DNA of 64,000 nt, from contig NC_092350.1 of NCBI RefSeq assembly GCF_963676685.1, forward strand, positions 57,040,001-57,104,000, written 5' to 3'. This stretch comes from Mytilus edulis (taxonomy: Eukaryota). The notes under the pieces were generated by a model that was given only the letters and a program-made list of their open reading frames with translations, was not told the DNA's origin and did no database searches. Of this stretch, positions 1 to 56,948 are shown one piece after another (the stretch's first letter is position 1; each line of letters starts with the position of its first letter). Position numbers and translations under genes: made by a program.

Positions 1-475
1 CAATTTAGTTGTATTAGACACTATTCTATATTTGTTTAAAATGGAACGGTCATTTGAAAGCAAAGACTGTACTAATAAGCAAACACACGAAACCTAACTC
101 ACTCACAGAAAATAGTATTGAATGATTCAAAAAGTAAGACAGAAATTAAAACTCAGGAATAAAACTGAAATGAAGGACTACCGTTAGAAAAGCTCACGGA
201 CAAGTGTCAACGGTTTGTAAATTTGAGATTAATTTTTTTATTATAATTTAAAACTGCGAACAAATTTCAAATCTATAACATCGCACGCACAAGATATGTA
301 TTTCGAAGAACAAGATAAGAATATCAAACATCTGAAATACTGATTATATATTAGACAAATGAAACACATAGGAATATAAAACAAATGAAAACGGCACATT
401 TTGCAAAAGACATCATGTTGTTTAAGCGTTTAAGTCTCCATGAAGGTTACGAGCTATTTATCCGAATTTTGGTAC

Positions 476-15930: not shown

Positions 15931-16049
15931 AAGTATAAATAGTACTTACAATTTTAGTCGCATAGAATCGAGCGCACCTCTGTTGTGTAAACAAATATCA
16001 GCTGCTTTTAAATCAATGAAAAGTACACACACTAATGTATGTCAAGGTA

Positions 16050-17970: not shown

Positions 17971-18091
17971 ATCAAAATATTTATGATAATTCTCTTTTTT
18001 AATAGGGACCAAATTAGATCGTACAGTAAAGGAGGCCATTAGAAATAGCGGCATCGAAGGTGACAGTTATCTTTATGAGCTTTATCCAAAA

Positions 18092-33560: not shown

Positions 33561-34974
33561 TCTGGCCACCAAGTTGGGCAGACATATTTGATTATTATTC
33601 AAATCATGTCATACATAAAAGCTCATAATTTAGTGTGGAAAGAATGGTAGCAAAATTTTGTAATTCGAATATTCAAGCTTTGAACAGGTATCAAGTTATA
33701 AGGACTATTGAAAATTTGTAGATATCAAGTATAAAGGCTGGGATATTTCAATAGTTCGGATTTGCGTCTATGGCAGAATTTTTTTTATATATTTTTTTAA
33801 AATATCCTTCTTTGTGAAATGAACAATACAATTGTACAATAAACAGCTTTCTAACAATAAAAAACTCTAACTTGTAAAACATATTTGTATACACCGCAAG
33901 TATAGGGACACATTATACAATAGAATAAAGCACGCACAGAGTGGGAAGTATGTTTTTCTGGATTTCGATTTTATAGTCCACGGCCATGGTTTGCAAAATT
34001 ATTCAGTAGAAAGTAAGTCATATTTTGGATTTAACAAACGAGACCGATGATCGTATTTAACTTCTTTAACTCTTGGAAATTATACAGTCCCAAGGGCTAA
34101 CTTTACATCGTAATGCTTAGTAATTCTAGGAAGAATGTACGAGTTCATGGAAAAGTACGGGTACAAAATGCTATAATATAGTGCAATATTTAGAGTAAAA
34201 TAATCATTAATAGGAGTTCGCCCACGTCACTTAAAACAACTTGAATTAAGTATCTTTATTTTTTCATGGGTTGTATCCCATCGAAATAACCAACTTTTTG
34301 TTCCTACAAATATAATCAATTTAAAAAGAAAGGAATAAAATACAACTGTCATATTCATCAGCTAGAACAGGCATTTATAAGGAAGATGTAAGGGATTTTT
34401 TTTATAACGACCTTAACCTTTATTTGTATGACATTTGTTCATAAAAATATTTATAAAACTATGTCCGCAATCCAAATAGACACAATTGTCGTACGTGACC
34501 ATAATCTCGATCCAGAAATCAAAGTTGTGTAATTTGTACTTTGTAAATACAACTGTTACACAAAACACGCCTCCTTTTGGAGATATATGCTAATTATGAT
34601 TTTTATAGTTTTCTTAACCTTCCGGTTCCAAGATATGATATCTATCTTTTCTCCTTGAACAAAATATTGGAATTCCACCAGTGTGAACACACATGGATAG
34701 TGACCACATCTACATTTTATAAAGACCCAAAGTGAAAGCAATGAAAGAACAGAATTTTAGTTTAAGTTTTAACTCAAATAAATTAGAGAGATATACATTT
34801 TGAAAATATATTCCGCAATGTCCTATGTTTTAACTTTTTTTTAAATATAACTGCATATCAATTGTTCCGTCTATGGTATACTATTGGACGAAACTAAATA
34901 GTAAAGGTGACACTGTTTGAGTCGAAAGAGGAGTTCCTTCTAGAGTTGTTCAAGTAAGTGTAACATCTTTGATG

Positions 34975-36435
34975 CCACTGTTTAAAAACACGCCATCATT
35001 TGCAAAAATCAGGTATTCGATGGATAAGGCGAAAAAATTTGATTATTCCCGGCGAAACATCAATTGTAACTGCAGATGAGCAACTTTTTGGTAATGGCTA
35101 AGCAGACTCAGTGGGAATGGCCTGCTTTGTGTGAAGAAAATAAGTTTATCTTAATGTTTGGTGGATTGCACATTGTAATGACTTGTTATAAAATTCTGGG
35201 TGATATATTGCGTGATAGTGGATAGACAATGTGCTCTCACTGAAGCCGATATTGCAATATCTAGAACGGCAGACTCTTTTTATGTATGGTCAAATGTACA
35301 AAGGACTAGAAACGCGCATCAGATAACTGCATGTGTTTTGCTTGAATTGTTATTGTCGGCTAATGAAAGCTAAACGCAAAAAATATAATTATGTCATGAC
35401 TCTGTGACGTTCAATGATTTGATAGACTGGTGTAAGGAAAAAGAGTCACCTCGACTACAGTTTGATTCCTGGCGTTCAATTATCAATAAAGTTAGTATGC
35501 TCATTTCATGAGTCCGACTTTGTACTTTACAAACAGTCCATATAACTCATGATACGGTATTTTTTTTAGTTCGTGATCGTGTAATTTATGCTTGATCGTT
35601 GCCGACCTATCTCAAGAGATATGGCATCCCTTCCAAACATTACCCAAAGGTGGCAATGGAATTTGAAAATGATAATTTCACTGTACAAACGACCAGCAAA
35701 TTTGTTTTCTTATAGCACAATTGATCAGGCACAAAAACAGAATAATGCAATTGTGAAGGGCGATGTTGGTGTCATAGGTTTGACCAAAGATCCCTTTTAG
35801 ACATTTGGATGGTAGCTGGACCAGGAGTCAGTAGACTAGAAGATGAATTTGAAAGATCTAGTGGTTTCTACAACAGATGAACGACATAATGAAGACTACG
35901 AAAATACGAACAGATATCTTTACAAATGCTTTGTAAAGTGGTGAACGAGTTTGGAAATCCATTTCTAGAAGAGTCGTCAGATTTGTTAAACAAGTTCCCC
36001 TATTAATGAAATTTTGGATTTGGGAGCCGGTAAGATATGTATATAAAATCCAAGATATTGGTCCGAACAATACAAAGATCTTTTGAAGCAAATACAAAAT
36101 GAAGAAGAACCTGCTTTTTATAACCAAATCAAAAAGAACAACTTCCTACTATGACCGTAAAATGAAACTGGAAACGTCTTTGTCAAAAACAAAGGTAGAC
36201 AACCTTACAAGTGTTTGCGATATTTTTTTAGACGTTTCATTTCTTGTCACAGTAGACAGTTTGACTTGGAATACATCTTTATCCATATAAACCAAACTGC
36301 TCCTCCGTCTTTGTCTCATGGTGTCACTTTAAACAGTGGTATTAAATCGCTGCCAATGGGTATACTGGAAACATTCTGCGATTTGCTGATCCAAATTCTG
36401 ACGCATAATCGTTGGTTGGGCAGCAATGGTCAATT
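34975..36435 (+). pseudogene. Academ-type transposase remnant (unit 2)
   Basis: Near-identical to unit 1, with the same disabling lesions. Confidence 0.7.
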
Positions 36436-36785
36436 CCTGGCCACCAAGTTGGGCAGACATATTTGATTATTATTCAAATCATGTCATATATAAAAGCTCA
36501 TAATTTAGTGTGGAAAGAATGGTAGCAAAATTTTGTAATTCGAATATCTAAGCTTTGAACAGGTATCAAGTTATAAGGACTATTGATTTTTTTTAGATAT
36601 CAAGTATAAAGGCTGGGATATTTCAATAGTTCCTGTTCTGATATGTCGCGCATCAAGGATCTAACGAAATTCGATAGACAGGTCAAATCTGGTGACCTAA
36701 GTTCACAAACTTTATATTTGAATAACATTAATTTTTCATCCAATCAGAATCCATCTCTTAAACGAGTTTCGGAACATCATTCAAA

Positions 36786-39556
36786 ATGGCGAACAAAAGT
36801 GACATAGACGTAGCGATTGACAAAGTTTTAACTGATTTCAAAATTTACACCCTCTAAGCTGAACAAAGGTCAATTTTGGACTGTTTGATAGAGAAGAAAG
36901 ACTGTATGGCCATACTCCCGACCGGATTTGGAAAATTGCTTCCCTACCAAATGCTTGTTTCAGTCCGCAGGGAACTTGAAAAAGAAACTTCCTCAGACGA
37001 TGTTGGAAAAGTGATCGTTTGTTCACCTCTAGTAGCACTAATGGCAGACCAAGTGAACAGAATTAATGCAGTACCAAATGTGACTGCGGCTCATAGGGGT
37101 AAGTTACGAAAATGAACCGTTTGAAATTTAAATTAAGAATGTCAAATTTGAACAGGGGGAAGGGGGGTGATCTTGGAGAACGCATTTTGGAAACAAAAAT
37201 ATAGTCAAGACTTTCTGTTGAACTCCCTTTCATATACGTATATATTTATCCTGTCATCAGAGGGGATCAAAGGGTGATTTGTTTTAAAAAAAAATACCAG
37301 ATGAATAATTCAGAGTAAACTGACTTCAAGAAAGACATGAAAGATGAAAATTATCACTTCATAAGATTATTAATATACCAGCAACCCATTCCCTTCAAAC
37401 TTAAATGGTTGTTTAATTAGAAAATGATATTGTTAATTTTTTTTCATATTTTTATTTAATAATAAATATAACACCACAATTACTTTGTATACAAGTATTT
37501 TAGAAAGTTAAACTGCATAATTTTCACGTATTTGTATGGTCCAAATACTTTATGGAATAGAACACATCTATTATGTACAAAATGTACAACACATCAATTT
37601 TATTAATGTCTTAGAATGCTCATGTATACATTTATAATATAAGAATTTTATTTCAAATGTCAAGCACTGTATGACGAGTTATAAGCATAGAAATATCAAA
37701 TGTGTACATCATGATCGAAATGTTATCAGGATTATCTGCTTTCATATCTTATTTTGCAAAAGATTATTTAATACATACATGTGTAAAAGTAATTAATTTT
37801 TAATAACCTTTAAGCTTTATTTATCAATTTGTAGGTGCCTGCAGTAATGGAGATGATGATATTTTGAAAGGCAAATTTGATTATTTGTTTGCCTCACCAG
37901 AAACACTAATCAGTGACAAAAAATGGAGAATGACATTACAGCAGATGAATGTGTCTTTGATTGTAGAAGACGAGTTTCACACCATATGCACATAGTAAGG
38001 GTAGCTTAAGACAATAGTAATGCAAAGAATGTGCTTTCAGACTATTGCTGATCAATATCAATAACTTCCTGTTACTGGAATGATGATATATATTTAAGTG
38101 AAGCCAAGTGGTCGTGTGGTTTAGCGCGTTGCATACAGTGCAGGCGATTTTATGTCACGATATCTCAATATCTCTCCAGGCGAGGAAAGAACAAAAAAAT
38201 TGGGAAAGCAAATTTACAGATCTAACATTGTTGGGTTGATGTTTAGACGAGTTATATATAAATATATATATATAAATTTATGTGTGTAATTATCTTCCCA
38301 GGTTGGACTTAACCATGATAATGTTTCAGAAAAAAAAATAAAGAGAAGGGTATACATATGGTATACATGGTATAGGGTATAGTTGAATAGTGCAACATAG
38401 TGAAATTTAAAAAAAAAATCAGAAGATTCTAAGACTTGAAGATAAAAAATTGTCATCAAAATTAAAAATTATAAGATGAAATACAAAGCAAAGGCTTATT
38501 TAAAAGTAACAAATAAAACAAACAGGAAAAATAAAGATTGATTGTGGTTAGTTTTATGTCCAGTGGCAAATATTTCATGAATATGAAGCAAGTGACAGTT
38601 GTCATTTTTTATATGAGAAGATAAAACCATGAATGTTTTGTGTTCAATTTATTATTATCATATAATGCTGTTCCATAACAGCTTTTTCAGTATTGGTTAT
38701 AAAGTCTTATACATTTGCGTTTTCTTTTTACAGGGGTGGTGTTGGTTAACAGGAGGAAGAGACTGCATTCAGAAAGTGGTTTCGACACATTGGAGAACTG
38801 CGTTCTATGTTTACAACAGCAAATCTGTTAGCACTAAGTGCTACATGTACCACTACAATGCGAAAAAGGGTTATGAGAGAGCTGCACATGCACAAAGATT
38901 TAACAACTATTATTTCAAAGTCACCAAATAAACCGAACATAAAATTTTGCGTACAAAAAATTGACAACACAATAGATATGTCAATGGTGTGGTTGGTAGG
39001 TGCACTTGAAAAATTAAAGATTGATTTTCCGAGAACTATAATTTATTCCAATACAATAAAACAATTGTCAGAGTTGTATTCATACTTGTGTACCGAAAAT
39101 CCAGATGCTGTACATTTAATTGATATGTTTCATTCAGAAACACCAGAAGAGAAGAAAAAAAACTATTATAAGCAAACTTAAAGATGGTAACAGCGAATTG
39201 CGGATCATTTTGGCAACATCCGCATTGGGATTGGGAATTTTAACTGTATTTTGTATGCTGCACCTTCTTCTGTGGTTGACTTGATCCAAGAGGTCGGTAG
39301 AATTGGAAGAAATGGGGATGAAGCTGTAGCGCTGCTGTTGTTTAATAAATATCATTTACAGCAAATGGAATCAAGGGTAAAAAGAATTTATAAGGCAAAA
39401 ATGTGTGTCCGCTTAAGCATAATGGAAGACTTCCTTACCAAAACAGAACTTGCAATGGTTCATAGTGGAACACATACGTGTTGTGACATTTGTGAAAAGG
39501 AATGTACATGTGGCGAGTGTAACAAAGTGATGATTGAGCAGTTTTTTATGGAATAG
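36786..39556 (+). pseudogene. RecQ-like SF2 helicase of the AcademH-like element, spliced, disrupted
   Basis: Exons ~36786-37098, ~37835-37993 and ~38734-39556. Motifs LPTGFGK (I), SPLVALMADQV (Ia), ASPE, DEFH (II), AFR, LALSAT (III), ATSALGLG (V), QEVGRIGRNG (VI) and C..CCDIC zinc module. Early TAA (~36855) and frameshifts. Confidence 0.88.
38102..38255 (+). mobile_element. Diverged copy of the tRNA-derived SINE in a helicase intron
   Basis: agccaagtggtcgtgtggtttagcg...aaatttacagatctaacattgttgggttgatgtttagacgagtt + (TA)n; box B deleted. Confidence 0.7.
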
Positions 39557-40127
39557 AAGACAATGAAGAAACTAGCAGTTCAAGTAGTGATACAGAGTTA
39601 TATTACTATGGTGATGACAGTTAAGTTCCTGCTGAAATATTTGATGAATATTAATAAAAAAAAATTAAAATGTCTAATTGTTATTCTAAACTTACCTAGC
39701 TAGAACAGTTTTAACCCACATTAGTAAACTCTGAAATTTCAAATGTGACCAAAAACATTGGTTGAACCACCACTTTCAGACATTCAGAGAAATAAAGAAT
39801 TCAGAGATTTACACTTGTAAATTATTCATTTCTATTTACATGTACATTGTTATAAAACAAGATACATGTATTGTTTGAGTGCCAATGAGACAACTATCCA
39901 CAATATTAAGTAGATTTTAGCAACTATAGGTCACTGTTCACACTTCAACAATGAGCAATATCCATACTGTACAGCAAACTACAACAGCTGGTGTGTAGAA
40001 AACCTCTCATTCTGTTTGTCAAAACAAATGACTGCCATGATAAATTGACTGTCAGTGTCAAAAAGAGGGCATTCAAAAACTTTCTCACCTAAATAACACT
40101 TATGTTAAAAAATAGTTATTTTGATAT

Positions 40128-40638
40128 AGGAAGATGTGGTATGAATGCCAATGAGACAACTCTCCATCCAAATAACAATTTATAAAAGTAAACCATTATA
40201 GGTCAATGTATGGCCTTCAACACCGAACCTTGGTTCACACCAAACAATAAGCTATAAACATGATAAAGGGCTCCAAAATACTAGTTGAACTTTAAAACCA
40301 TTCAAACAGGAAACTAACGGTCTAATCTATATAAAAGAACGAGAAACACATATAAATTACATAAACAAACCACAACTACTGTACATTAGATTCCTCACTT
40401 AGGACAGGAGCAAACATTTGAAGCGGGATGAAACGTTTTAATGGTACCAAACGTTCTCCCTTTTTCTGAAACAATAATACAATGTATAACATCTCACCAT
40501 AGAAAAACATCAATTGGAAGGCTTAACTCCTCAAAAACCGTTAATTAACACACTATGAACGAATAATTTTGATCTGCGATACCTGAATGCAATAACATAG
40601 TTAATAAAATTATTAGGGACAATCATTCAAGGCCAAAA
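40128..40638 (+). repeat. Dispersed repeat (same family as 6905-8355)
   Basis: Direct alignment by eye to 6905-6970 + 7916-8355. Confidence 0.75.
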
Positions 40639-42676
40639 GTGTATTGTCCAACCTGGATGATGATCATGAACACAATTTCATATACCAAATATTGTTTACC
40701 TACTGTACATGTATGGGTCTATGAAACAGCACAAACCCTGAAAATTATGTCAACGTTACATGACTGCCAGCTAGACATGTACACCTTACAATCATTCTAT
40801 ACACAAAATATAGTTTACCAATATAAGCAATCAATAAACCATGAAACTGGAATCAAGGACAACCAACATGTGAAGTGTAAAATAAAACTTTGATATTATA
40901 AGTTATCATATCATATCAATTGAGTGCTAACAGCTTTATACCAAGGACTGATGCCAATCATTACAATGTCTGCAGAAAGTTTAAGCAAGAAAGCAAAATA
41001 AAAGTTAACACTAACATTCGTATAAAAAAGTTGTTGTAAGTGTACAATGGTGCATCACAGGTGTGGATCACGCAGACGTATAAATGGAACATGTGGCCTG
41101 TGGCGGTAAATCATGGATGACAATCCTTCAAAACAATTGTCATATGGATTTCTGTCGACAACAAGTGCTTTGCATTTAAATGTGCGTCCTGGTTTATTTT
41201 CCAGCACATTTAGTTCTTGCAAGTCTTTCATTACCTTCAATACATCTTCTTTGTATGATGGCAGTGATGACACCCTTTCCTTTGATGGATTTCAGTAATT
41301 GCATCAAAGTGCTTAGTAATGTCTATAACGATTGGATATTCTTTGGAATGTGCAATAATACTCTACACTGTTTGGTGTCCAGAGCAAGCTACCTTACTAT
41401 CCCTATTGAGCATTTCAACAAATTCATCCAATGCAATATTGTTATTTTTCCCTCCTTGCAAGTTTATAAACCTATTATTAATCAAACTTTCTTCCTGATC
41501 TGGTGGCAGTAATCCTGAGGTTAGAGCAGTCAGGTGTATTGAACCAATAGAGTATTTCGTTTTATTTGTTTTGTTGTAAACTGGGAGTTCATATTTTGCA
41601 GATCGGACTGACCTTCCTCCATTGCCCATGTCAACAGCTGAGTCCAAATTTTTGGGCAGTAACACAAGTTTAAACAACAAAGCAATGTAGTCTTGAACTC
41701 TATCTTTGTCTTTCGGTTTAACTGTCTTACTTTTCCTTTCAGCTGGAAGGTTATGAACTTTGCTTTCATGTGACTTAAGAGATCCAAGGTATGCATCAGA
41801 TTTCGGACAGAAGTGACATTTAATGCGTCCATTTTCTAGGTTAGCTAGCCAATAGTTCACTGGGTGATCCCTATCAAAAACTACTTCACGTAAATTCTGA
41901 CATATATCAGTTGTGTCCTCAAAAAAAACATTGTTGGATTAATATGCTACAAATGTCATTAATCCATGCTTTTTTTTCATCTTTTGTTTTATGCTGGAAG
42001 TTTTCTGGAAGAACTTTCTCCGTTTCTGTCATTTTTAAATGGTCCAAAAAAAGAAGTAGGCAGATTGCATCTAAAATGGTATAGTACAGCAGTTTGAAAG
42101 GACGGGATGCATTCTTTACTTTTCCTTTAACATTTCTCATATTATTTAAAAGATTTCTGTAGTAGTGCATTGTGCCCTTGTCACTTGCACTTTCGGTGTT
42201 ATATGTCAGTTTGTATATAGCCTGAAAATACAAATAACAAGATGTTGAAATGTTGACAACAAACTCTCAATACATTTGAAAACAACTGCTGACATTTGAC
42301 ATTTGTGGGTTTTTTATATTGCGTTTTTTTAATACTGTATTATATTTTCTAAATAAAAAGTTCCTTTTAAAACATGTAATCTGTGGTCTAAATTCACAGT
42401 TGAGACATTGTGAAAAACATGTGGATCTAATGTCAAAACAGCCCTATGAGGATCACTCAGTGGCCAAGAGGTCTAGCCTATCAACACTAAGTTTGTTCTT
42501 GGCACACTCATAGGTTATTCAACAATAACATCTGGTTGTCATTAAAAACAAATAGTGTGAACAAAATCAATCAATTTATTAAAACAGATTTTACTGACTG
42601 CATTTAAGCAATGTGTGGACATATGGTGGAAACTTGTCTCGGTTGTAATCATACCACATCTCCGTTAAATAGTTAT

Positions 42677-42826
42677 ATCAACCCAACAATGTTAGATCTG
42701 TAAATTTGCTTTGGCAAATTTTTGGTTCTTCCCTCGCCGGGATTCGAACCCATGCTACTGTGATATCGTGACACCAAATCGCCTGCACTGCAGCCGTACC
42801 GCTAGACCACACGACCACCTTGGCTC
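42677..42826 (-). mobile_element. tRNA-derived SINE copy in a transposase intron
   Basis: Near-identical to 23790-23940, with box B GGTTCGAATCC on the minus strand. Confidence 0.78.
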
Positions 42827-45800
42827 ATATATATATGGGAATCATGTAACAAAAGACAATTTCTATTACCTCTAAAAAGATCATCAACCTATGAAAATCT
42901 TCAATCTTTGATATGAAACCTTTTAACTTTTCCTTTGGACTGTCTGCATTACTCATTGCAGTCTGTGCACTCTAAACTCTTTCATCAGTCAACCTGTCAC
43001 CTATACAATTCATTTAATTTAAACTGTGTTAATTACAAAACAAAAGGATGATGAGTAAATACCTCTACAAACTTGAAATATCTGTGTTAAGTCATAAAGA
43101 TTAAAATGTAGATTGAATTTGATATCATGTTCAATTATATTTTTTTAAGTCACAAAAGTGTTTGCCCATGAATTTAACATTTGTAACAGTAGCTCTGAAA
43201 TCAATACAAGGATTAAGACATACAGGAATGACATGGGTAATACTGAATGCCCCCTCCCCTATGCTACAGGGGGGGGCATAATAACAGGTTGAATATTTTA
43301 ATGATTTCTTTATGGAATCACCACCTAAAAATACTGGTTCAAAAATCTCTCCATTTCTGAGTGGCACATATTTCTCTGTCAACTGTTTTAACAGTCTTAT
43401 TAGCTCCTGTGTCTTATTTCATTGCATTTGAACAATCCCAATGGATACTGAAATATAATACAGGATGAAATAGTAAATGTTATAATACAATGTGGATACT
43501 AAATATTAAGAAGAGAACTTTTGGAAGTATGATCAGCTTTTATTTCCTCATTTTTTACAAATCTTTATTTAAATGAATTAAGAGCAGTGAATAAACTTTG
43601 ACAACTGAAACATGTTTTGTTTTTAAATTAAGAAGTTGAATGCAGAATTTAATTTTATATCTTCATGCTTGATAAATAAATATTAATCTTTTAAATAAAA
43701 AAATAAGAAATGATGTTCAAAATGTAATCTTTAATCTATGGCATTGGCTACTGAAATTTGTGAGGTAATGTATGCCAAGTAAAAAGTAATTGCAGGATAA
43801 CAAAAAGGTTCCTTACAACCTGACCACCCCTTTTTCAATGAACCCTTTCAAGATTACAAACCTATTCGAAACTTCATAACCTATAGTTGTTAATGTCTGT
43901 GTAATTTTGGTCTCTTGGGGACAGTTGTCTTATTGGTAATCAAACCACATCTTCTTTTTTATAGTTAAAAAATATTAATACCTGAATCGTTTTGATGCCA
44001 GAAAAAAAACTGTATTTATGCTCAAAATGTTTTGGATAAATACTCTTCAATGACTGTTCCAATCGTGGTATGTTTGATATCACTGAGGTTGCAAAAATAA
44101 AGGTCAATTCTGTCATTAACTGTTCTTGTTCTGATATTGATGGCAAATAAGTTGATATATCGATTTCAGAAATATCTAAGACTGTTATATTCTGAGCAGG
44201 GTTTGGGGTGATTCGGTCTACAACTGCAATAAGGTTGAAAAGATGAAGTGACAAAGTTTTCTGCAGTGATGTACGAAAAGATGGTAGAATGTTCTTGTCC
44301 CAATTATCTCCGATAAGTTGATACTTTTTTAATCCTCCTTCAGACCAGGCGTTCCTCAAAGAAATAATTTCAGCATCAAGATTGCCCTGCCAACTTTGTA
44401 ACCTATTATGTATGGTCTTTGGATGTACACTGAGGACTATAGAAGCTAATATCTCAATATCCTAAAACAAAAATCACTCAGTAGAGTTATAACCACCTAA
44501 CTTTTCTTTTAGCAACTTTGTATTAAAGGGAGATCCAAAGAAACTGTGGCAGTAGCATAACAACTTCAGATAATAATTACATGCAACAGGATATCAATAT
44601 ATATATATTCGCGTAAAATTGCCAATATCCAATTCACTTGGACTTGGTGGATAGCTGTCTCATTGGTAATCATACCACTTCTCATAAATATGAAATGCAT
44701 GAAAGATTTATTATTAGTATTTCCTCACTCTAGCATGTCTAGATCTCATTATCTCAAATTCAATAGTTTAAAATAATAATCAGTTATCTCTGAACAGAAA
44801 AGGACGGACTAATAACCCTTAAATTGAGCTTTGCGCATTCATGACATTACAAAATAGTTTGTGAAGCAAATATTTCCATTCCAGACTGGTTTTTTTTGGT
44901 TAGATTTCATAAACATCCAATGACATTCTTTCGATTTTGAAAGATAATAAATTTATCGTCCTGAATATTCATGTAATACTTGCAACTGGAAGTTAGGCAA
45001 CCATCAATCAATTCATTTTTCTTTATACAATTGATTACAGATTTCTCAACATATTTAAAAAAAATTAACATATATATACCCTTAAAGTGCAGTCACCATG
45101 TGTCAAAATGAAGCCCATCATATACTGTACTAATGACATTTCCTGACTGCGTCCATGCAGTCCAATTGCAGCAGAAAGCAAAATATGATGAAAAGCCTTG
45201 CTACCAGTTTGTGGTGGACTATCTGCTACTACAGACGAAATGATGGTCAATAATCCTGGACACGACTGACTTAGCTCATCATACAATTTTTTTCAATTGA
45301 ATGAAAAAATATTTGAGTATCCTTTTTTCTGTAAAATTATTCCAGACCCTCTCTTGCATATTTTGCCACTTTCCTCTTTCACTATTTTTGCAGCTGCATT
45401 CATCACCATCATTGGACTTGATTCTGCAATAATATTTAACACTCCCTTTTCTACATTAACTCCTTGAAGGATGGTTTTGCAAATTTTTTTGTGCATTTCC
45501 TGATACACATAAGTGTTTTTTGTTCCACTCGGATAGTGCACTGTCAACTGCAAAAAGATAAAGTAAATTTTATAGTCATTGTTTTATGTAAAACAAATGT
45601 GGTATCATTGCTATATGATTCAGATACATGTACATGTGTAAGCCACTAGTATAGGTAACTATATGGCTTTCAATAATGAGCAAAACCCACAAATTACATG
45701 TATGTTATTTCAGTGTGTAGATGTAAGTAAATTGGCATTTATTATAAAAAAAAAAAGATGTGGTACGATAGATAAGGCAACTCTACACAAGAGACCAAAA

Positions 45801-46978
45801 AGACATAGAAACCAACAACGACGGGTCAGCTTATGGCCTTCAATAGTGTGCAAGATGTGTATGTATTCCTAAAGTAATCAAAATAAAATATTTTAATTTA
45901 ACATGTACATGTCTACAAATATATATAAAGACTCTGTCATTATCATGATTACATTTTTCATCATGTTTAAATGAAATGTTCACAGCATACAAAAATAACA
46001 TAAGCAAATGAAATTTACAGGTACTGAAACCCTTAGATATGCTAAAAATGTATACATCTATCTGTCTATATATTTCAATTTCAAATAAGGAAAATATAAA
46101 GCTTGAAAACTGTTTTACCTATATAAACATAATACCAGTACAGAGCTTAGTCAGTATAAATATCCACCAGGGTTGACCACAAATTTAATTTAAATGACTC
46201 TATAAATGAATCTATTCCTGAAAGAAAGAAAAAATCATGCAAACAAATGCAAATTTTCAACAATAAAAATAACATTAAAAAGGTCATTATCAATTGCACT
46301 GTAATAAGTACAGTTTATCATTTGTATCTAAAAAAGATACAATAAGTAAACACAAAATTAGTACATGTGAATGTACTTTAGTAAGATGAAATATATTCAT
46401 TTAACAATTGATTTTTACACTTAACCTAGGCTACATGAACACTTATTTGCTGAATAAAATGATAATGACCTCTTTCAAAAACATGCAAAAAAGAATGAAA
46501 AAAAGAATATGAGATAGATCCAGTATATATTCATGATATTTAAAAAAATGTCTTTTTACAAATTTGAAAATTCAAAACTTTTTTTCTGAAAAATTGTTCC
46601 AAATTGAGGACCTAGATACATGTACGATTACATGCCTCAATACACACCACTACAACTGGATCCATCTTTGTAGTTCTTACTTCTATTTTATTTTTGGTTA
46701 ATGAAAATATTTCTTAACTAAATATCTTCAAATAAACAAAATCTAAACTATATCAATTTTAATCAACATGTAATTGAAACAACTTGTTTGTGAATCCACC
46801 TTTACTTCTCCTTCATATGGCAAATTTTGCTCATTTTCTTTCCCACTAAATCCGAGAGACCTTCTAGCTGTCTTTTCTGCCCCATGTGACACAGTAGATA
46901 TCTTCACATGTGTATGTTCTCCAATGACTGTCATACAAGTAGATATATTCAGTAAATGCTTACATATCCATGTTTTAT

Positions 46979-47977
46979 ATGTTTTAGATTTTAACGAGAG
47001 AAATTTATGTATTACTGAAAAATTATTACACCAGGGTTTTCGATATCACAAACTAGTCAAAACATTTACTAAATTTTATCATCGGTATAAAGACATTATT
47101 CGTAAATATAGCTCAACTTGCAGACTTTTTATACATTCGGGTATTTCACATCCAATTTTTTATGGAAATATTCTTTATAAAGCTCAAAGGTGTCAGTATT
47201 CACCTCAGAAACTTACAAAACCTTTGAATAGACTTATTAAGAAGGGATATAATTACGATACTGTTGTCAAGTCATTAAAGATTGCATATTTTGGCGTTAA
47301 TATTGAGTCACTGATAAGGTCTTTGCGTCGGAACTAAACACATTTATTCTAAAAACAGTTGTTGGCATGACACGGGTTATGTTCTTCTCATATATGTTAT
47401 GATGGTATGATACTAAACCCCTAACGGGAAGGATTGTGCCTGATGTTCATATGATGAAATCATAATCTTTCAGTCAGTTTAATTGAAGTCTGGAGCTGGC
47501 ATGTCAGTTAACTGCTAGTAGTCTGTTGTTATTTATGTATTATTGTCATTTTGTTTATTTTCTTTGGTTACATCTTCTGACATCAGACTCGGACTTCTCT
47601 TGAACTGAATTTTAATGTGCGTATTGTTATGCGTTTACTTTTCTACATTGGTTAGAGGTATAGGGGGAGGATTGAGATCTCACAAACATGTTTAACCCCG
47701 CCGTATTTTTGCGCCTGTCCCAAGTCAGGAGCCTCTGGCCTTTGTTAGTCTTGTACTATTTTAATTTTAGTTTCTTGTGTACAATTTGGAAATTAGTATG
47801 GCGTTCATTATCACTGAACTAGTATATATTTGTTTAGGGGCCAGCTGAAGGACGCCTCCTGGTGCGGGAATTTATCGCTACATTGAAGACCTGTTGGTGA
47901 CCTTCTGCTGTTGTTTTTTTATTTGGTCGGGTTGTTGTCTCTTTGACACATTCCCCATTTCCATTCTCAATTTTATT
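46979..47977 (+). mobile_element. 5'-truncated Naiad-type Penelope-like copy inserted in the transposase gene
   Basis: Reverse complement of ~476-1474; encodes VLDFNERNLCITEKLL...SLIRSLRRN*. Confidence 0.88.
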
Positions 47978-49087
47978 TATATACATGTATATCATTGTAC
48001 AGGATGATAAAGATAGTATGTCAAAAAGTAAGTTAACATATATACCATGTATACATGTACAGTTCGAGTTGTATGTACTTTTAAATGTCATTATGACATT
48101 CTTTCATCTGGGACTGCTTCGGTAAAGTCAGAAATGTTTTCGTAATTTAAGTCCCAGGGTTAAATGAAATCAATAACATATATGATAAAAGTTCTCATAA
48201 TGCATGTACCAAATATACTGGTATTGTACATGTACATGTTGTACACATCATGCACATGTACAAACAGGAATGTATTTATGTTTTAAAGCAAACAATTTTC
48301 TTATGAAGGCTATATTTGAGGGGTTGGACATGGGGTTCCCCGATTACAAATATAGCATATTTTTTTAGCACAGGTTTAAAGAACTTATGTACCTGGCATG
48401 TACTTCTCCTTCCAGTTCCCTCATTTCCATGTTCACTTCACATGTTTACACCTAGTCCAAATAATTATGACTTCTGGAAAGACTATTTTTGCTTTGACGA
48501 CTTCATGCGACGATGTAAGGCGTAAAAAAAAATATAATAGCTTTTCAAGATGTCATAATTATTTGGACTAGTTTACACCCACACATATCTTATATTTATC
48601 TTTGAACCTACCAGAGGAAAGACTTGTATCATATTCTGTTGGTCTGGGCACAATAGCTACAAACTGCTTGACTATAGTAGCTGGTTCATGTGGTTGAGTA
48701 ACACCTGCACCCATCAATGGCATCGTACACATAGCGCTAAATGAAAGGAATTTTAACTGCATGTTTCACAATTACTTGAGATGGAAATGTTTTCTGCTGT
48801 TTCTGTTTGACAGATGAGAATGGGGACCTGAGAAGTCTTTTCTCTACCGTTTTTAATCTCTTTGGACAGGTCTGATGGGTTCGAATTAAAGATGATTTTT
48901 ATTTTCTACTTCTTCTTCTTGCCGAAAAACCTTCTCCACGATTTTGTAACATTTTGTGCAAAATCCATTATTTTTATCCTCGTCTGTAACATCGAAAGAC
49001 GGTATTATATGGAAAGCCTCAGCTGTCATATATTAGAGATTTACAAAACTTTATGCTGAAGCTTAAAATGTAAAGTTAAGACAGCGT

Positions 49088-50530
49088 GATGTTGAATTAA
49101 GTCATCAAAATGCTAACTCTGAATTACAATATGCTAAGTTGAATCTGCGCAATGTTGACTTGCAATGACAAGTGCTGTAGTCGTGATAGTATAATGATAA
49201 ATCACGATGTTGTGATGATATGCCGAACACACGTTACGTTGAGTTTAAAGTAAATGATGTGAAGTTGACGTTGCATGATGTTAGCTTGCAGATTGATAAT
49301 GCTCAGTAATCCACTTCGATTGCTATGATAACAAATAAATTGAACAGCTACAATGTATGGTGCTGACTTGATATTAATAAATGTTTAGCTGAAATAGTAC
49401 GATGTTATCTCATTGTGATATTGCGATAGGTCTATCATGCAATCTGTTGATTTAAAACACCATGATGTACAGTTGAAAGTACATGATGTTAGGTTAAGAT
49501 AACACGATGCTACACAACAATATTGAAACGAAAGGCCCACCATACAATGTGTTGACTTAAAACAACACGATGCAGCGTTGAAAGTACATGATGTTAAGCT
49601 AAGATGACATGTTGGTTTATCAGTATAATGTCGCGATGGGCTTACCATACAATATGCTCACTCGAAACTACAAGACGTACAGTTGAAATTTTGTAATGTT
49701 ACGCTATGATAGCATGATGTTATATCAATTTAATGTGACGATGGGCTTACCATCACTATGCTCACTCGAAACTACAAGACGTACAGTTGAAATTTTGTAA
49801 TGTTAAGCTAAGATTGCATGCTATTAAATCAATATAATGTCACGCTAGGCTTATTACACGATATGCTCATTTAAAACTACACAACGTACAGTTGAAAGTA
49901 TGTGATGATAAGCTATGATAGAATGTTGTTATGTCATTTGAATGTCACGATAGGCTTACCATACACTATGCTCATTTAAAACTACACAACGTACAGTTAA
50001 AAGTATGTGCTATTGAGCTATGATAGCACGATGTTATATCATAATAATACCACGATAGGCTTGCCATACGATATGCTCATTTAAAACTTCATGACGTACA
50101 GTTGAAAGTATGTGATGTTGAGCTATGATAGCACGATGTTATATCATAATAATACCACGATAGGCTTGCCATACAATATGCTCATTCAAAACTTCATGAC
50201 GTACAGTTGAAAGTATGTGATGTTGAGCTATGATAGCACGATGTTATATCATAATAATGTCACGATAGGCTGGCCATACAATATGCCCATTCAAAACTAC
50301 ACGACGCACAGTTGAAAGTACGTGTTGTTGAGCTACGATAGCACGATGTTATATCATAATAATATCACGAAAGGCAAGCCATACAATATTACCATTCAAA
50401 ACTACACGACGTACAGTTGAAAGTACGTGTTGTTGAGCTAAGATAGAACGATGTTATATCATTATGACGTCACGAGAGGATTATCATACAATGTGTTGAC
50501 TTGAAACTACACGATGTAAATTTGAAGTAG
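49088..50530 (+). repeat. 21-bp-periodic array with 105-bp higher-order units (left arm)
   Basis: NATGYT core every 21 bp from 49088; tt/ggccatac recurs at 50061, 50166 and 50271 (105-bp period). Confidence 0.85.
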
Positions 50531-51841
50531 TTTGGTCTTGACTTGAAACAGTAAAATGTTAAGTTATAAAAACAGAACGTTAAGTCAAAATAAAACAATG
50601 ATAGGATGATATATACCTGTGCAGAATTGAAGTTATTTGGTGTTGTCTTCGAATAAAGTGCAAATGTTAGATCGTTTTGATGTTAAATTTAAAGACAATA
50701 ATGATGCTTAAAACATTACAGAATTACATGTATGTGAATTGAAACTGCAATTCTATGGAAAAGAATGAGGAAAAAATCCGCAGGATTTTTCTTCTTCATT
50801 TGCAAGTTGATGAATATTGATAACATTTTACTCAAGAGGCAAAAGGATATTCAAAAAAAGTTTTTCCATGTTTTCTTAGTCGGATTTATTTTTTATGATT
50901 CAAACCCAGTTTTTTTTTACGAACAATATTTTAGAAAATATTTAATTATCTATGTTGAGTGTTGATATATGCAACATAGTGTTGTCGCTTTATACGACTT
51001 ATGACTGTAAGGATCAAATTTCTACTCATATAAAATCACATCTATTAAAAGTTATCAGATAATTTGTATCTACCACTCCCCTTTTCCGCGAAATAAAACG
51101 TAGGACTTGGAGGATCAGATCTATATGAGAATGTGACCCCCGGGCCTTGATAGAGGTATCTGAAAATTTGAATGTTCTTTTCCCCGAAATAAAACAATAG
51201 AATCTGGACTTTATCAAAACCGATGCGAATACGATTTCCATAGAATGTCAGAGACGGTTTGTCGACTAGTTTGTTTAAAATTCGGCTGGTCAAGCAAAGT
51301 ATGACTTGTAACAAAGCAGTTTTTTTTTCATATTCATATCACATGTTCTCGTCCTGATATGCATGTAATATTTGCCACTGTACGTAAAGCGCACTCTTTT
51401 CCCCTAAATAAAACCATAAAAGAATGATTAATCAAAACCGATGCTATTTGAATGTCCATAGATTGTCATAGACGGTTTGTCAACTAGTTTGTTAAAAATT
51501 CGGCTAAGCAAGCAAAATATGTCTTGTACAGAGCCAATTAAGATTTATTCATATTCGTATCACACTTACACACTCTCGTCCTTATATGCATGTTATATTT
51601 GTCACTGTACACAAAACACAAATACATTATTATCATTTTTTTTTGTGTGTAAATGAGCCACATCTACCTATACCTATTTTGAGCACGTTTATAGATTGAA
51701 CACCCTGTAATTCATGTTTATTGGAGTTCCTCGAAAATTAAACACATTTCTTCTTTATTTGCAAAATCGCCAAGTGACGGGTGCCAACTACGAAACAGGA
51801 TCTGCTAACCCTTCTGGAGAATCTGAGGTAGACCTTTTTTA

Positions 51842-52125
51842 GGGAGCTACCATTTGATTATTATAGGGGGGGCTAGGATGAAATTTGAAAAAAATAGGCA
51901 GGACAGGAGTTTTGAGTAAAAAAAAAAAGGCAGGATGAGACACTTGCAAAAAAAAAAAGTCAGGATGACAATTATTGTAAAAAAAGTCAGGATAAACTAA
52001 AAAAAAAAAAACAGGACCGGATAGAGTGAAAAATAAAAAGGCAGGACAGAGATTACAACTAAAAAAAAATGCAGGACAAAATTTTTCATCCTAGCCCCCC
52101 CCATAAAAATCAAATGGTAGCTCCC
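51842..52125. mobile_element. PIF/Harbinger-like MITE
   Basis: TTA|GGGAGCTACCATTTGATT ... AATCAAATGGTAGCTCCC|TTA; internal repeats of (A)n-G(G/T)CAGGA. Confidence 0.8.
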
Positions 52126-52434
52126 TTAGTGTTCCGTGTTGCTCAGTCTTTGGTTTTTTATGTCGCGCTTAATATACTGTTGTTTGGCTTTTGATCTTCT
52201 TTCTAAGGTTTATTTCGGCTGATGAGTTTTTGTCATAACATTGTCAGTTTGGTTAAGAGTTTTATTATTCCTTTTGTATCTTTCGACTTCTTTGTCCAAT
52301 GATTTGTGTGTATTTCTATTCGTTTCTTTTCGATTCTCCCCTCCCCTGAACAGTATAATAGATAGATAATTGAAAACGGAAACCCTTTTCAGAAAAGGAG
52401 ATATACAAGTCACTCGACGTGACTGTTTTTTTTT

Positions 52435-52647
52435 NNNNNNNNNNNNNNNNNNNNNNNNNNNNNNNNNNNNNNNNNNNNNNNNNNNNNNNNNNNNNNNNNN
52501 NNNNNNNNNNNNNNNNNNNNNNNNNNNNNNNNNNNNNNNNNNNNNNNNNNNNNNNNNNNNNNNNNNNNNNNNNNNNNNNNNNNNNNNNNNNNNNNNNNNN
52601 NNNNNNNNNNNNNNNNNNNNNNNNNNNNNNNNNNNNNNNNNNNNNNN
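52435..52647. other. Assembly gap (N run)
   Basis: 213 consecutive N. Confidence 0.99.
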
Positions 52648-53071
52648 CTACAATCTAATCAAAGCAATACCAAAATAATTTTTGCAGTTTATCAAATTTT
52701 ACAGATTTTTTGATTTTTTCTTTTCATTGAAAACACATATAAATAGAGAGAAGCTGTAAAGAACCAAGAAACTTACTATGTACAAGAACATGTGTGACGG
52801 AAATCATTTATTTGCTTCTTATTATAAGTTGTAGGGAGGCATTGTCCATTAATGGATTTACAAATAAAAAATAAATAATTCCCCGAGTGGATATATTGAT
52901 AAACCTGGGCACTACATCTTATTTGGTGCTGGAATAATGGTTGAAACTGCTGTCAATGATGGGTTTTTTTTTAGAAAGTTGACGATTTAGACTGGAGGCT
53001 CTATGTCAAATTTCATTAGGTTTCATAGACTTCATGTAGGAGTGAAAAGTAAACAACAGAATCTAACATAA

Positions 53072-53370
53072 TTTGTGTGTTTTTGGTTGGCCCCATACAG
53101 TAGGATACTTCCACCTATCGATTCATCCGTATAGATACATTCAAATTTTCTAGATTATTATTCAATTAAAAAATTTCATTATATTGTTTGGTGTTGGGTT
53201 TTTTTTTTAGGGGTGTTTTATTTGTGTGTTTGGGTTGGCCCCATACAGTAGGATACTTCCACCTATCGATTCATCCGTATAGATACATTCGAATTTTCTA
53301 GATTATTATTCAATTAAAAAAAATCTTTATATTGTTTGGTGTTGGGTTTTTTTTTTGGAGGGGTGTTTTA
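53072..53370. repeat. Two-copy tandem duplication of ~149 bp
   Basis: ggttggccccatacagtaggatacttccacctatcgattcatccgtatagatacattc occurs twice in tandem. Confidence 0.9.
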
Positions 53371-53986
53371 CAGTTCTACTCTTTAGCGCATCATTTATCA
53401 GATCTGTTGGGTTTTATTTTTAGATTAAGTCCATATTATTTTCTTTTATTTTTGAGTAAGGGGGTTGTATTAACTAAAATTATCTGATAACTCTGACACA
53501 GATGTGGAGCTATAAGCTTAAACTTTGGTAGATCCTTTCCCACTGAGAGCATTTGAATTTTGTACGAGGAGATAACACAGATTAAGGCATAAGACTTTGT
53601 ATTTCCTGTCAATTAAACATATTTTTTTCATCGTGTAAAATGAATTTATACGAGCGAAAAAATAAATAATCACATGAGTATTATTATAAAAAGCCGTTTA
53701 ATCTTTACAAAAATTAAGAGTTAAAAAGCTCATTATGTATATTCTGTATGAATAAACGGGAATATGGGTTATGCGTAACTGAGACAGCAATTCAACGTCG
53801 ATTTTTTTTTTATCAAAATGCATAGTGAGGGTGACACACTTAACAGAATTCATCAAAGAATTGTCATTAAATTCGAATTCTTAAAAATTGACGAAAAACA
53901 TAAGTTATCGCCTTCGGCTCAGGGGATATAAACTCTAAGCCGGGAATGTCACAGTATATACCCTGTCTGAGACCTGAATAACACAT

Positions 53987-54430
53987 ATATTACGGATTAC
54001 CCCTGACTTAATGTTATTTTCCAGTGCAAGTATTTGTTGACAACACATATATGTTGAAAAACCCAACCTGATATGTTCGGCATACGTTCAGGATTTTCTG
54101 ATTTGCTGTGAACATAATTTTATAGTGTATGTAATAATTTATAATAACACTTTTAGCATTAAATTTAAGTATTAAAAAAGTGTAAATTGCGTGATTTTGT
54201 ATTAAAAATGTATTTTTGACTAACGCACGTCATTATTTTCCCTCTGTGAGCCTCTGACAGACCCATAGCTTTTGACTACGTCACATAGTAACCAGTGTTA
54301 TGATGACGTTTTTGAGGTTCCAATTGGGGATAAAAACGTCGTATATACCCCGGCAGTTTCCCGAATATATACTGACATCTCTGTGTTGTTATCCAATCAC
54401 AAACCTCGACACATTTGTAATCCGTAATAT
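53987..54430. mobile_element. Possible small non-autonomous element with short TIRs in a TA context
   Basis: ATATTACGGATTAC ... GTAATCCGTAATAT perfect 14-bp inverted repeat. Confidence 0.45.
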
Positions 54431-54939
54431 ATATATATATTAACACAAAACATAGATAAATATTTTCTTAAATATTGTTCATAAAAAAAAGTCTGGGTTT
54501 TAATCATAAAAAAAATTCCAAACTAAACATGTAAAAAATCCGGCAAAACTGTACTTAAGTGTGTCTATATAGCGATCAATATTTGTTTTGCTTTATGGAT
54601 TTATGGAGAACTTTCTTTGTATATCCTTTTGCTTTTTGAGTTAAATTTCATTAATATTCATCTACTTTCAAATAAAGAAGAAAAAATCCTGGGGATTTGT
54701 CCCTCATTCTTTTCCATAGAATTGCAGTTTCAATTCACACAATTCTTTAATGTTTTAAGCATCATTATTGTCTTTCAATTTAACATAAAAACGATCTAAC
54801 ATTTGCACTATATTCGAAGACAACACCAAATAACTTCAATTCTGCACAGGTATATATCATCCTATCATTGTTTTATTTTGACTTAACGTTCTGTTTTTAT
54901 AACTTAACATTTTACTGTTTCAAGTCAAGACCAAACTAC

Positions 54940-56272
54940 TTCAAATTTACATCGTGTCGTTTCAAGTCAACACATTGTATGATAATCCTCTCGTGACGTC
55001 ATAATGATATATCATCGTGCTATCTTAGCTCAGCAACACATACTTTCAACTGTACGTCGTGTAGTTTTGAATGCGCATATTGTATGGCCAGCCTATCGTG
55101 ACATTATTATGATTTTACATCGTGCTATCATAGCTCAACATCACATACTTTCAACTAAACGTAATGAAGTTTTGAATGAGCATATTGTATGGCAAGCCTA
55201 TCATGGTATTATTATGATATAACATCGTGCTATCATAGCTCAACATTACATTCTTTTAACTGTACGTTGTGTAGTTTTAAATGAGCATATATATATATAT
55301 AGTGTATGGTAAGCCTATCGTGACATTCAAATGACATAACAACATTCTATCATAGCTTATCATCACATACTTTCAACTGTACGTTGTGTAGTTTTAAATG
55401 AGCATTGTGTATGGTAAGCCTATCGTGACATTCAAATGACATAACAACATTCTATCATAGATTATCATCACATACTTTCAGCTGAACGTTGTGTAGTTTT
55501 AAATGAGCATATCGTGAGGTAAGCCTAGCGTGACATTAAATTGATATAATAGCATGCAATCTTAGCTTAACATTGCAACATTTCAACTGTACGTCTTGTA
55601 GTTTCGAGTGAGCATATTGTATGGTAAGTCCATCGTCACATTAAATTGATATAACATCATGCTATCATAGCTTAACATTACAAAATTTCAACTGTACGTC
55701 TTGTAGTTTCGAGTGAGCATATTGTATGGTAAGCCCATCGTGACATTATACTGATAAACCATTATGATCATGTACTTTCAACGTTGCAACGTGTTGTTTT
55801 AAGTCAACACATTGTATGGTGGGCCTTTTGTTTCAATATAGTTGTGTAGCATCGTGTTATCTTAACCTAACATCATGTACTTTCAACTGTACATCATGGT
55901 GTTTTAAATCAACAGATTGCATGATAGACCTATCGCAATATCACAATAAGATAACATCGTACTATTTCAGCTAAACATTTATTAATAACAAGTCAGCACC
56001 ATACATTGTAGCTGTTCAATTTATTTGTTATCATAGCAATCGAAGTGGATTACTGAGCATTATACATCTGCAAGCCAACATCATGCAACGTCAACTTCAC
56101 ATCATTTACTTTAAACTCAACGTAACGTTTGTTCGGCATATCATCACAACATCATGACTTATCATTATACTATCACGACTACAGCACTTGTCATTGCAAG
56201 TCAACATTGTGCAGATTCAACTTAGCATATTGTAATTCAGAGTTAGCATTTTGATGACTCAATTCAACATCA
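54940..56272 (-). repeat. Inverted copy of the 21/105-bp array (right arm)
   Basis: Reverse complement of the left array, with unit-number differences and a (TA)n expansion near 55288-55301. Confidence 0.85.
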
Positions 56273-56807
56273 CGCTGTCTTTACTTTACATTTTAAGATT
56301 CAGCATAGAGTTTTGTAAATCTCTAATATATGACAGCTGAGGCTTTCCATAGTATTATTTTTTTCACATTGTTCACTCTTACATCTGTCAAGCGAAGTTT
56401 ATGTTTGAAAAGTTTTACCTCATGTTTTTCACCGGTAGATGATATTTCAGTGTGAACAAACGAAAATGCACACAACAAACACACATTTTGACCATCTTAA
56501 ACACGTCGAGGTGTTAAAACACTTTCAGTTGCCATCATTACAGTTCATTTATAAATCGATGCGTGTTTTCACTGGGCGCAGCCATTTTCCAATATTTTTA
56601 TTTATTTCCATTCGAGTATGCTTGGATTAGAACTATTAATTACAACCGGAAAAATCGAAAGGACTAAAAATGCCAAAGAGAGACGATTTCTGATTGGTTG
56701 GCTCGATAGGTCACCAGATTTGACCTGTCTATCGAGTTTCGTTAGATCCTTGATGCGCGACATATCAGAACAGGAGCAATTAAAGGATTTAATTTTAATT
56801 AGATTGT

Positions 56808-56948
56808 AAAAAACTCGAACTTGTAAAACATATTTGTATACACCGCAAGTATAGGGACACATTATACAATAGAATAAAGCACGCACAGTAGTGGGAAGTA
56901 TGTTTTTCTGGATTTCGATTTTATAGTCAACGGCCATGGGGTCCGTGT
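56808..56948 (+). repeat. Continuation of the AcademX-derived unit to the right of the AcademH-like element
   Basis: aaaaactc.aacttgtaaaacatatttgtatacaccgcaag...cggccatggg matches 30999-31129 and 33860-33990. Confidence 0.9.

What the first reader, a model, noticed from the sequence alone, without database searches (positions are those of the whole stretch)
36627..56779. Helicase-carrying AcademH-like transposon with convergent, intron-rich genes and near-perfect TIRs 20 kb apart
Seen: 69-bp TIRs with one mismatch enclose a RecQ-like helicase (+) and a transposase-like gene (-) arranged tail to tail. Established: the AcademH lineage pairs an Academ transposase with a RecQ-related SF2 helicase and is little studied; the helicase's role is unknown. 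This copy can be reconstructed end to end once the nested insertions are removed. The TIRs look better preserved than the ORFs.
Basis: partly seen in the sequence, partly recalled or inferred. Interest (0 to 1): 0.7.

Follow-up and report, generated by a model that had tools for sequence, protein, structure and literature searches.

The report
Helicase transposon leaves long excision scars
This is a broken copy of a helicase-carrying jumping gene in a mussel-like genome, and short leftovers of it and four relatives mostly stop at or before one fixed point inside their ends, which likely means these elements cut themselves out with 46-63-base overhangs that their helicase would unwind.

Summary
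The convergent helicase/transposase pair is real and fits AcademH, but the ends were misread. The right end is at 56806 (5'-CAATCT..., TIR 100 bp). The left TIR has lost its outer 31 bp with about 110 bp of flank, so this copy has no TSD pair. Both genes are broken. The TIRs are no better preserved than the ORFs.

Four related families in the genome share the layout; three have open frames; 6 of 7 two-ended full-length copies of A-C have 9-bp TSDs.

The useful result lies outside the window. 113 short two-ended remnants of five families (102 with 9/10-bp TSDs) have 96 different junctions. Their arms stop just before an inner ATCT motif that echoes the terminus: positions 63, 57, 46, 59, 56. 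Three caps were predicted beforehand. 214 of 226 arms do not need to pass cap+1. They look like excision scars of a P-element-like staggered cut three to four times longer than P's 17 nt, which would give the helicase a job. The cut is inferred; the helicase role is untested. The scan noted the same idea before in another mussel genome (e1-9876373, unreviewed). The AcademH paper was not available to check.

The parts
36631..36699 (+). Left TIR remnant (TIR positions 32-100); outer 31 bp deleted with about 110 bp of flank
36658..36659 (+). Inferred inner nick site of the left end (CAAGG|ATCTAAC, TIR 59|60)
   Evidence: arm cap of family remnants; fold-back joints at 36658 in runs X1 and X11
36786..37098 (+). 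Helicase exon 1 (Walker A region); premature stop at codon 24
37835..37994 (+). Helicase exon 2 (DEFH motif); Trp codon split by the intron has become a stop
38734..39657 (+). Helicase exon 3 (FRKWF loop, second RecA domain, QxxGRxGR, Cys-rich Zn domain, acidic tail); 2 stops, 3 frameshifts; end approximate
41055..42221 (-). Transposase exon 7 (C2H2 finger, LDEFVE motif, stop); 2 frameshifts, 1 stop
42870..43000 (-). Transposase exon 6 (D-RLTDER, EDFH motif); 1 stop
43322..43447 (-). Transposase exon 5; 1 frameshift
43982..44461 (-). Transposase exon 4 (GDNWD motif), open
45080..45547 (-). Transposase exon 3; 1 stop
46800..46927 (-). Transposase exon 2 (predicted; in frame, ARRSLG motif also in relatives)
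48612..49007 (-). Transposase exon 1, 3' part (CxxC, KRLLRSP); 2 frameshifts
56358..56535 (-). Transposase exon 1, 5' part (start, TPRRV, CxxC); 1 stop
49008..56351 (.). Nested 7.3-kb fold-back element with TA..TA ends, 6-bp TSD GTATTA, 105-bp tandem repeats in both arms; splits transposase exon 1; contains the N run 52435-52647
46979..47977 (+). Retroelement 3' fragment in transposase intron 1, 97.6% identical to 476-1473 (inverted)
38088..38240 (+). Short SINE-like repeat in helicase intron 2 (label inferred)
42677..42836 (-). Short SINE-like repeat in transposase intron 6, 98% identical to 23790-23939
56707..56806 (-). Complete right TIR, 100 bp, terminus 5'-CAATCTAATT; inferred inner nick at 56748|56747
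56807..56815 (+). Surviving copy of the likely 9-bp target duplication (TAAAAAACT)
   Evidence: empty sites in tandem units
33740..33866 (+). Empty site in the neighbouring 2.87-kb tandem unit (second empty site at about 30879-31005)

Best explanation
This is a dead copy of an AcademH-type cut-and-paste transposon whose family likely excises with a long staggered cut, 59 nt here and 46-63 nt in relatives, and whose RecQ-like helicase would unwind the duplex between the two nicks. Step 1 (inferred from DDE chemistry and the fold): the transposase nicks the transferred strand at the terminus, CAATCT(A/C)AT. Step 2 (inferred from the scars): it nicks the other strand just before an inner copy of the same word, ATCT(G)AAC. 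Step 3 (untested): the 3'-5' helicase separates the 46-63 bp between the nicks, which are too long to melt alone. Step 4 (shown as a pattern): the donor keeps two identical 3' tails that are joined tip to tip, trimmed to microhomology, or patched with filler, leaving a palindromic scar between the original 9/10-bp TSDs. Step 5 (inferred): at the new site repair synthesis fills tail gap plus TSD. This copy later decayed at about 1% per site, took a 7.3-kb insertion in transposase exon 1 and lost its left tip.
For: 113 remnants under 300 bp in five families, 96 distinct junctions, 102 with a 9/10-bp TSD (85 exact, 17 one mismatch), 32 with fillers of 10 nt or more. Arm ends: 34 of 226 exactly at the cap, 147 in cap-8..cap, 13 in cap+1..cap+8 (binomial P 7e-27; one row per junction 121 vs 13, P 9e-21). 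The cap moves with the motif between families: A 63, B 57, C 46, D 59, E 56. Caps for A and B were written down and for E, each before its search; in E, 6 of 28 arms end at 56, 1 passes it, and one remnant is a perfect 56+56 palindrome. Simple junctions with an arm at the cap lack microhomology in 16 of 17; those without have it in 33 of 38. Two A remnants with the same junction carry different parental TIR variants on both arms (L161, L246), so they formed separately. L148 holds a copy of its own TSD at the centre, so it was repaired in place. The best fold match of a homologous transposase is P element transposase (Z 9.0, rmsd 6.2, 364 aligned), which cuts 17 nt inside its TIR (passages of PMC7776569). 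A homologous helicase matches WRN/RecQ cores (E 5e-26). Computed Tm of the inter-nick duplex is 75-84 C against 54-62 C for the first 17 bp (a rough relative figure).
Against: No cut or unwinding was observed; all is read from genome scars. 12 of 226 arms must extend past cap+1 (to 49-68, or to 122-200), which needs gap repair from an intact template or another route. The cap for C was fitted after seeing the data and its motif differs (ATCTGAAC); 5 of its arms read 47. Only 2 of 36 B arms and 3 of 32 A arms end exactly at the cap. The microhomology contrast is partly built in, because a cap end with chance homology reads as cap+1 or more. A few complex junctions recur at unrelated loci (L158/L163, L007/L008, L292/L296), so some remnants may have moved. 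No helicase-less Academ control was run. The P-element match is only about 1.3 Z above the next rows, and Foldseek ranked Hermes first at E 0.004. Both folds are of homologues (P0003, P0099), not of the window's broken proteins. An earlier scan note describes a fungal AcademH with 18-bp TIRs (unchecked), where a 50-nt stagger inside the TIR cannot apply.
Confidence: 0.6

Rival explanations
1. The long staggered cut is real, but the transposase or a host helicase separates the strands; the element's helicase acts elsewhere, for example at the target, in opening the 9-10-bp duplication or removing the transpososome.
For: All scar data concern the cut, not who unwinds. A passage of PMC10045372 links TSD length to the helicase. 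P transposase releases its 17-nt stagger with no element-encoded helicase.
Against: 46-63 bp is much more stable than 17 bp. A 9-bp target gap needs no helicase in hAT, P or MULE (established knowledge). All five families with capped scars keep the helicase gene.
Confidence: 0.17
2. The element is cut out near-blunt, and the remnants come from abortive gap repair off the sister chromatid that stalls where transposase sits on the inner motif.
For: Some arms run far inside (122, 127, 200 nt) and join at microhomology, which is what gap repair gives. A binding site would also move with the motif between families.
Against: A stall at a bound protein should be fuzzy and fall short of the motif, yet 19 of 78 D arms and 6 of 28 E arms end on one base. 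Annealing at the palindromic GATC one base further on would be favoured but occurs in only 1 of 113 (L196). Both ends would have to stall at the same base.
Confidence: 0.13
3. The remnants are ordinary MITEs: one perfect palindromic master per family was copied around and then decayed at its centre through hairpin instability.
For: Perfect palindromes exist (59+59 twice in D, 56+56 in E), arms differ from the reference by only 0.3-1.2%, and some junctions recur.
Against: 96 junctions in 113 copies; same junction on different parental TIR variants; captured foreign filler between intact arms; no perfect master seen for A or C. Five masters would each have had to form at the motif, which itself calls for a defined end there.
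Confidence: 0.08

Closest known systems
AcademH lineage of the Academ superfamily (Kojima 2020, Mob DNA 11:15, PMC7165386; not held; known from passages of PMC10045372 and PMC10799480 and from recall)
   Same: Helicase (DEAD + Helicase_C, RecQ fold) plus DDE transposase inside TIRs; 9/10-bp TSDs; animal host. Academ is already reported as expanded in bivalves, with 100 curated consensus elements (passages of PMC10294476).
   Different: Probably an uncatalogued family (could not check Repbase). I found no account of its cutting chemistry or of capped palindromic scars in the searches; the 2020 paper itself and its supplements were not seen.
Drosophila P element transposase (PDB 6p5a; review PMC7776569, passages seen)
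   Same: Best fold match; DxxH-like motif (EDFH); second-strand nick well inside the TIR giving long 3' tails.
   Different: P: 17 nt, 8-bp TSD, THAP domain, GTP cofactor, no helicase gene. Here: 46-63 nt inferred, 9/10-bp TSD, no THAP hit, own helicase.
KolobokH and Kolobok-1_CCri (passages of PMC9587614)
   Same: DDE transposon carrying a RecQ helicase, in one case on the opposite strand.
   Different: Kolobok makes TTAA 4-bp TSDs; here 9/10 bp with no fixed target word.
IS3EU/GingerRoot (passage of PMC10045372), for the nested element only
   Same: TA..TA termini and 6-bp TSD (exact in 4 of 6 pairs).
   Different: No transposase found inside this copy, so the assignment rests on ends alone.

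Membership tests
AcademH | RecQ-related SF2 helicase gene inside the TIRs | tested here: met
   Pfam DEAD 5e-08 on window exon 1, Helicase_C 3e-17 on a sister exon; homologue folds like WRN/RecQ
AcademH | 9- or 10-bp TSD | tested here: met
   Own family: 29 exact and 4 one-mismatch of 39 remnants; 6 of 7 two-ended full-length copies of A-C; family E full-length copy shows 8. Not readable on the window copy, whose left TSD is deleted.
AcademH | DDE (RNase H-like) transposase | tested here: met
   Homologue model pLDDT 87 aligns to P, Hermes, integrase cores; conserved GDNWD, GGD, EDFH, LDEYLE, all present in the window. Which residues are catalytic is inferred.
AcademH | Transposase groups with Repbase Academ proteins in a tree | not testable with these tools
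   No Repbase or Dfam sequences; defining papers not held. Equating DUF6589 with AcademH transposase is inference (search gave one listing, not read).
AcademH | No XPG nuclease (the AcademX marker) | tested here: met
   No XPG family on window exons or on a 983-aa homologue
AcademH sublineage with PHD finger (recalled) | PHD finger in the transposase | tested here: not met
   None in Pfam scans; only a weak zf-AD hit (E 0.012) on a sister's exon 1
P element superfamily | THAP domain and 8-bp TSD | tested here: not met
   resemblance is one of working only
P element superfamily | GTP-binding insertion | not tested
Kolobok (KolobokH) | TTAA 4-bp TSD | tested here: not met
MITE family (for the short remnants) | Uniform length from one amplified master | tested here: not met
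   96 junctions in 113 copies, 60-272 bp

The most novel reading that the evidence does not exclude
Mollusc AcademH transposons use the longest staggered excision known for a DDE transposase (46-63 nt against 17 for P). The inner nick is set by a second copy of the terminal word, and the encoded RecQ helicase is the dedicated release factor. This would be a helicase-dependent form of cut-and-paste, and many short palindromic 'MITEs' in these genomes would be excision scars that count past jumps.
Probability: 0.55. Interest if true: 0.85.

Novelty: new variant of a known kind. Interest (0 to 1): 0.72.

Why it matters
The copy itself is an ordinary dead element of a known lineage. Families with open frames exist in the same genome, so cut sites can be mapped directly. 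If true, it adds a new way to handle the second strand in DDE transposition, and it warns that some repeat-library 'MITEs' are footprints.

Tried and rejected
TIR-better-than-ORF: rejected. Second full-length copy of the window's family: none found; only two helicase fragments at 86-89%. A target motif at a fixed distance (lead from note e1-9884696): none in 35 sites; best non-simple 6-mer in 6 sites against 5-7 in control flanks. Whether other mussels carry this insertion: unresolved. No listed contig crosses the left junction in 4 runs (47 pieces not shown). One 56-base contig of X2 crosses the right junction with 26 and 30 bases, under the tool's 31-base rule. Rfam: one sub-threshold SECIS hit in the retroelement fragment, ignored. 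Pfam gave no name to the flank's decayed coding pieces. TIRs for a helicase-less control element near C11:5.757 Mb were not found, so that control was not run. No complex prediction was sent, since binding is not claimed. Ends left out of the 226-arm count (single-ended, over 300 bp, or full-length): 60, of which 34 end at or before cap+1, 2 at cap+2..20, 24 longer. Not every match was fetched: loci came from 71 (D), 36 (A), 35 (B), 62 (C), 30 (E) exact end matches; all of E and most, not all, of the others were read.
Full report
Observation. The 69-bp inverted repeat with one mismatch is real (36631-36699 and 56707-56775), but it is the inner part of a 100-bp TIR. Matches elsewhere in the genome begin CAATCTAATT and are flanked by 9-bp duplications. 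In four public runs the depth drops sharply after 56806, with many different sequences behind it. The element lies in the third copy of a 2.87-kb tandem unit; the other two copies show the empty site. They show that 36627-36630 is flank, and that 100 bp of flank, the left TSD and TIR positions 1-31 are deleted. The closest named proteins are from Mytilus, so the host is likely a mussel.

Genes. The helicase has 3 exons and the transposase 7 predicted exons, with most intron positions shared with relatives. Pfam gives DEAD, Helicase_C and DUF6589. A 7.3-kb fold-back element with a 6-bp TSD splits transposase exon 1; leaving it out restores the frame across the site. After splicing, 4 stops and 3 frameshifts remain in the helicase, and 4 stops and 5 frameshifts in the transposase. 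Sister proteins at 93-98% identity (P0031, P0090) put the decay at about 0.9-1.2% per site by my count. One change in 169 bp of TIR is what that rate predicts. A model of a homologous transposase (pLDDT 87) has an RNase H-like core with a large helical insertion. The best match is P transposase (Z 9.0), followed by integrases, Hermes and ISCth4 at Z 7-8; Foldseek ranks Hermes first without reaching E 0.001. A homologous helicase matches WRN and RecQ. In the alignment it ends after the zinc domain in an acidic tail.

Relatives. Four other families (A, B, C, E) have the same convergent layout, TIRs of about 89-106 bp and the terminus CAATCT(A/C)ATT. Six of seven two-ended full-length copies of A-C have 9-bp TSDs. 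One copy each of A, B and C has open frames for both genes. The window's family (D) has no second full-length copy in these searches, but 71 exact matches to its 36-bp end.

The remnants. Those matches are not a uniform MITE. Most are 69-191-bp near-palindromes, each with its own centre. At I noted that D arms stop at 59, just before ATCTAAC, and predicted 63 for A and 57 for B. At I predicted 56 for E. The strict count covers 113 two-ended remnants under 300 bp: A 16, B 18, C 26, D 39, E 14. Of 226 arms, 169 end below the cap, 45 reach it and 12 must pass cap+1. 34 end exactly on it; 147 lie in the nine positions up to it and 13 in the eight beyond. The cap for C (46) was fitted afterwards. 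102 of 113 keep a 9/10-bp TSD, 32 hold filler of 10 nt or more, and there are 96 distinct junctions. Joints with an arm at the cap are blunt in 16 of 17; others use microhomology in 33 of 38, a contrast that is partly built into the way arms are read. The 60 ends left out of the count follow the same cap or belong to long elements. The inner word matches the terminal one: CA|ATCTAAT outside, GG|ATCTAAC or AG|ATCTAAC inside.

Mechanism. DDE chemistry requires the 3' end at the terminus (established knowledge). A nick on the other strand at the inner word would leave the donor with two identical 3' tails of exactly the cap length. Joining them gives the observed scars: perfect palindromes, trimmed ones, microhomology joins and captured filler, with the TSD intact. 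P transposase does this with 17 nt (PMC7776569 and PMC10983969, passages seen). A duplex of 46-63 bp is far more stable, which supplies a task for a 3'-5' RecQ-type helicase. Shown: the scar pattern and its register with the motif. Inferred: the nick. Untested: the helicase step. My odds are about 0.75 for the long stagger and 0.6 for stagger plus helicase release. The rivals are a helicase acting elsewhere (0.17), stalled gap repair (0.13) and decayed MITE masters (0.08).

Against. Twelve arms pass the cap; a few complex junctions recur at unrelated loci; no helicase-less control was run; both folds are of homologues; an unchecked scan note reports a fungal AcademH with 18-bp TIRs.

What is known. 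AcademH makes 9/10-bp TSDs and its helicase has been linked loosely to TSD length (passage of PMC10045372). Academ is expanded in bivalves (passages of PMC10294476). I also saw passages of PMC10799480, PMC9587614 and PMC5751038. The defining paper and Yuan and Wessler 2011 are not held, so their text and supplements, which may bear on novelty, were not seen. Searches gave no listing that describes Academ cutting chemistry; most listings were not read. The scan has an unreviewed note with the same footprint reading in another mussel genome (e1-9876373). I saw it after writing the idea down; it is not independent proof.

Verdict. The window copy is a decayed, one-ended new member of AcademH, and ordinary as such. 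The family's scars point to a new variant of cut-and-paste and make the helicase question testable at single-base resolution. Interest 0.72.

Noticed in passing
window 30332-36632 and 56807-56940: The element sits in the third copy of a 2.87-kb tandem unit (copies differ by 1.1-2.3%). The unit holds decayed coding pieces whose motifs (FGGLH, ADIAT.GTADSF, IDQAQKQNNA) resemble AcademX transposases from recall; Pfam gave no name.
   Followed up: partly
window 30080-30335: An extra 250-bp piece of the unit ends within the 9-bp target of the insertion and continues with CAAT, as the lost left junction would. It may be a relic of the break that removed the left tip, or chance in an A-rich stretch.
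   Followed up: partly
window 49008-56351: Multi-copy fold-back family with 1.4-1.7-kb arms built from 105-bp repeats, TA..TA ends and 6-bp TSD; 41 end matches in the genome, pairs mostly 1.7-21 kb apart. IS3EU/GingerRoot-like by ends; no autonomous partner sought.
   Followed up: partly
G000:C4:86005870-86019219, C7:67093027-67106616, C1644:72713-86443: Full-length relatives (families A, B, C) whose spliced helicase (467-495 aa) and transposase (988-1047 aa; A's small exon 2 uncertain) frames are open; other A copies are 99% identical.
   Followed up: yes
window 36855 in runs X1, X2, X3, X11: The premature stop in helicase exon 1 is shared by contigs of four runs from four studies; three of them lack a later window change at 37056, and a second variant without the stop also occurs in three. 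The dead lineage is therefore older than this individual.
   Followed up: partly
G000:C6:22894636-22929860: A distant helicase-plus-DUF6589-like element (about 30% identity) with 76-bp TIRs beginning (AC)CATCTTCGC and a long tandem array inside; its scars were not examined.
   Followed up: no
L158/L163, L007/L008, L292/L296: The complex junctions that recur at unrelated loci each keep or re-create one (A/G)GATCT word, which is nearly palindromic and might serve as the inner site for both ends, making such remnants mobile. Speculation.
   Followed up: no
window 15190-22251: Two 97% identical pieces with RT-RNase H and weak tyrosine-recombinase hits, probably a DIRS-like retroelement.
   Followed up: no
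G000:C11:44962460-44984886: Family E full-length copy (22 kb, with insertions) has an 8-bp TSD, while its short remnants have 9 or 10.
   Followed up: partly
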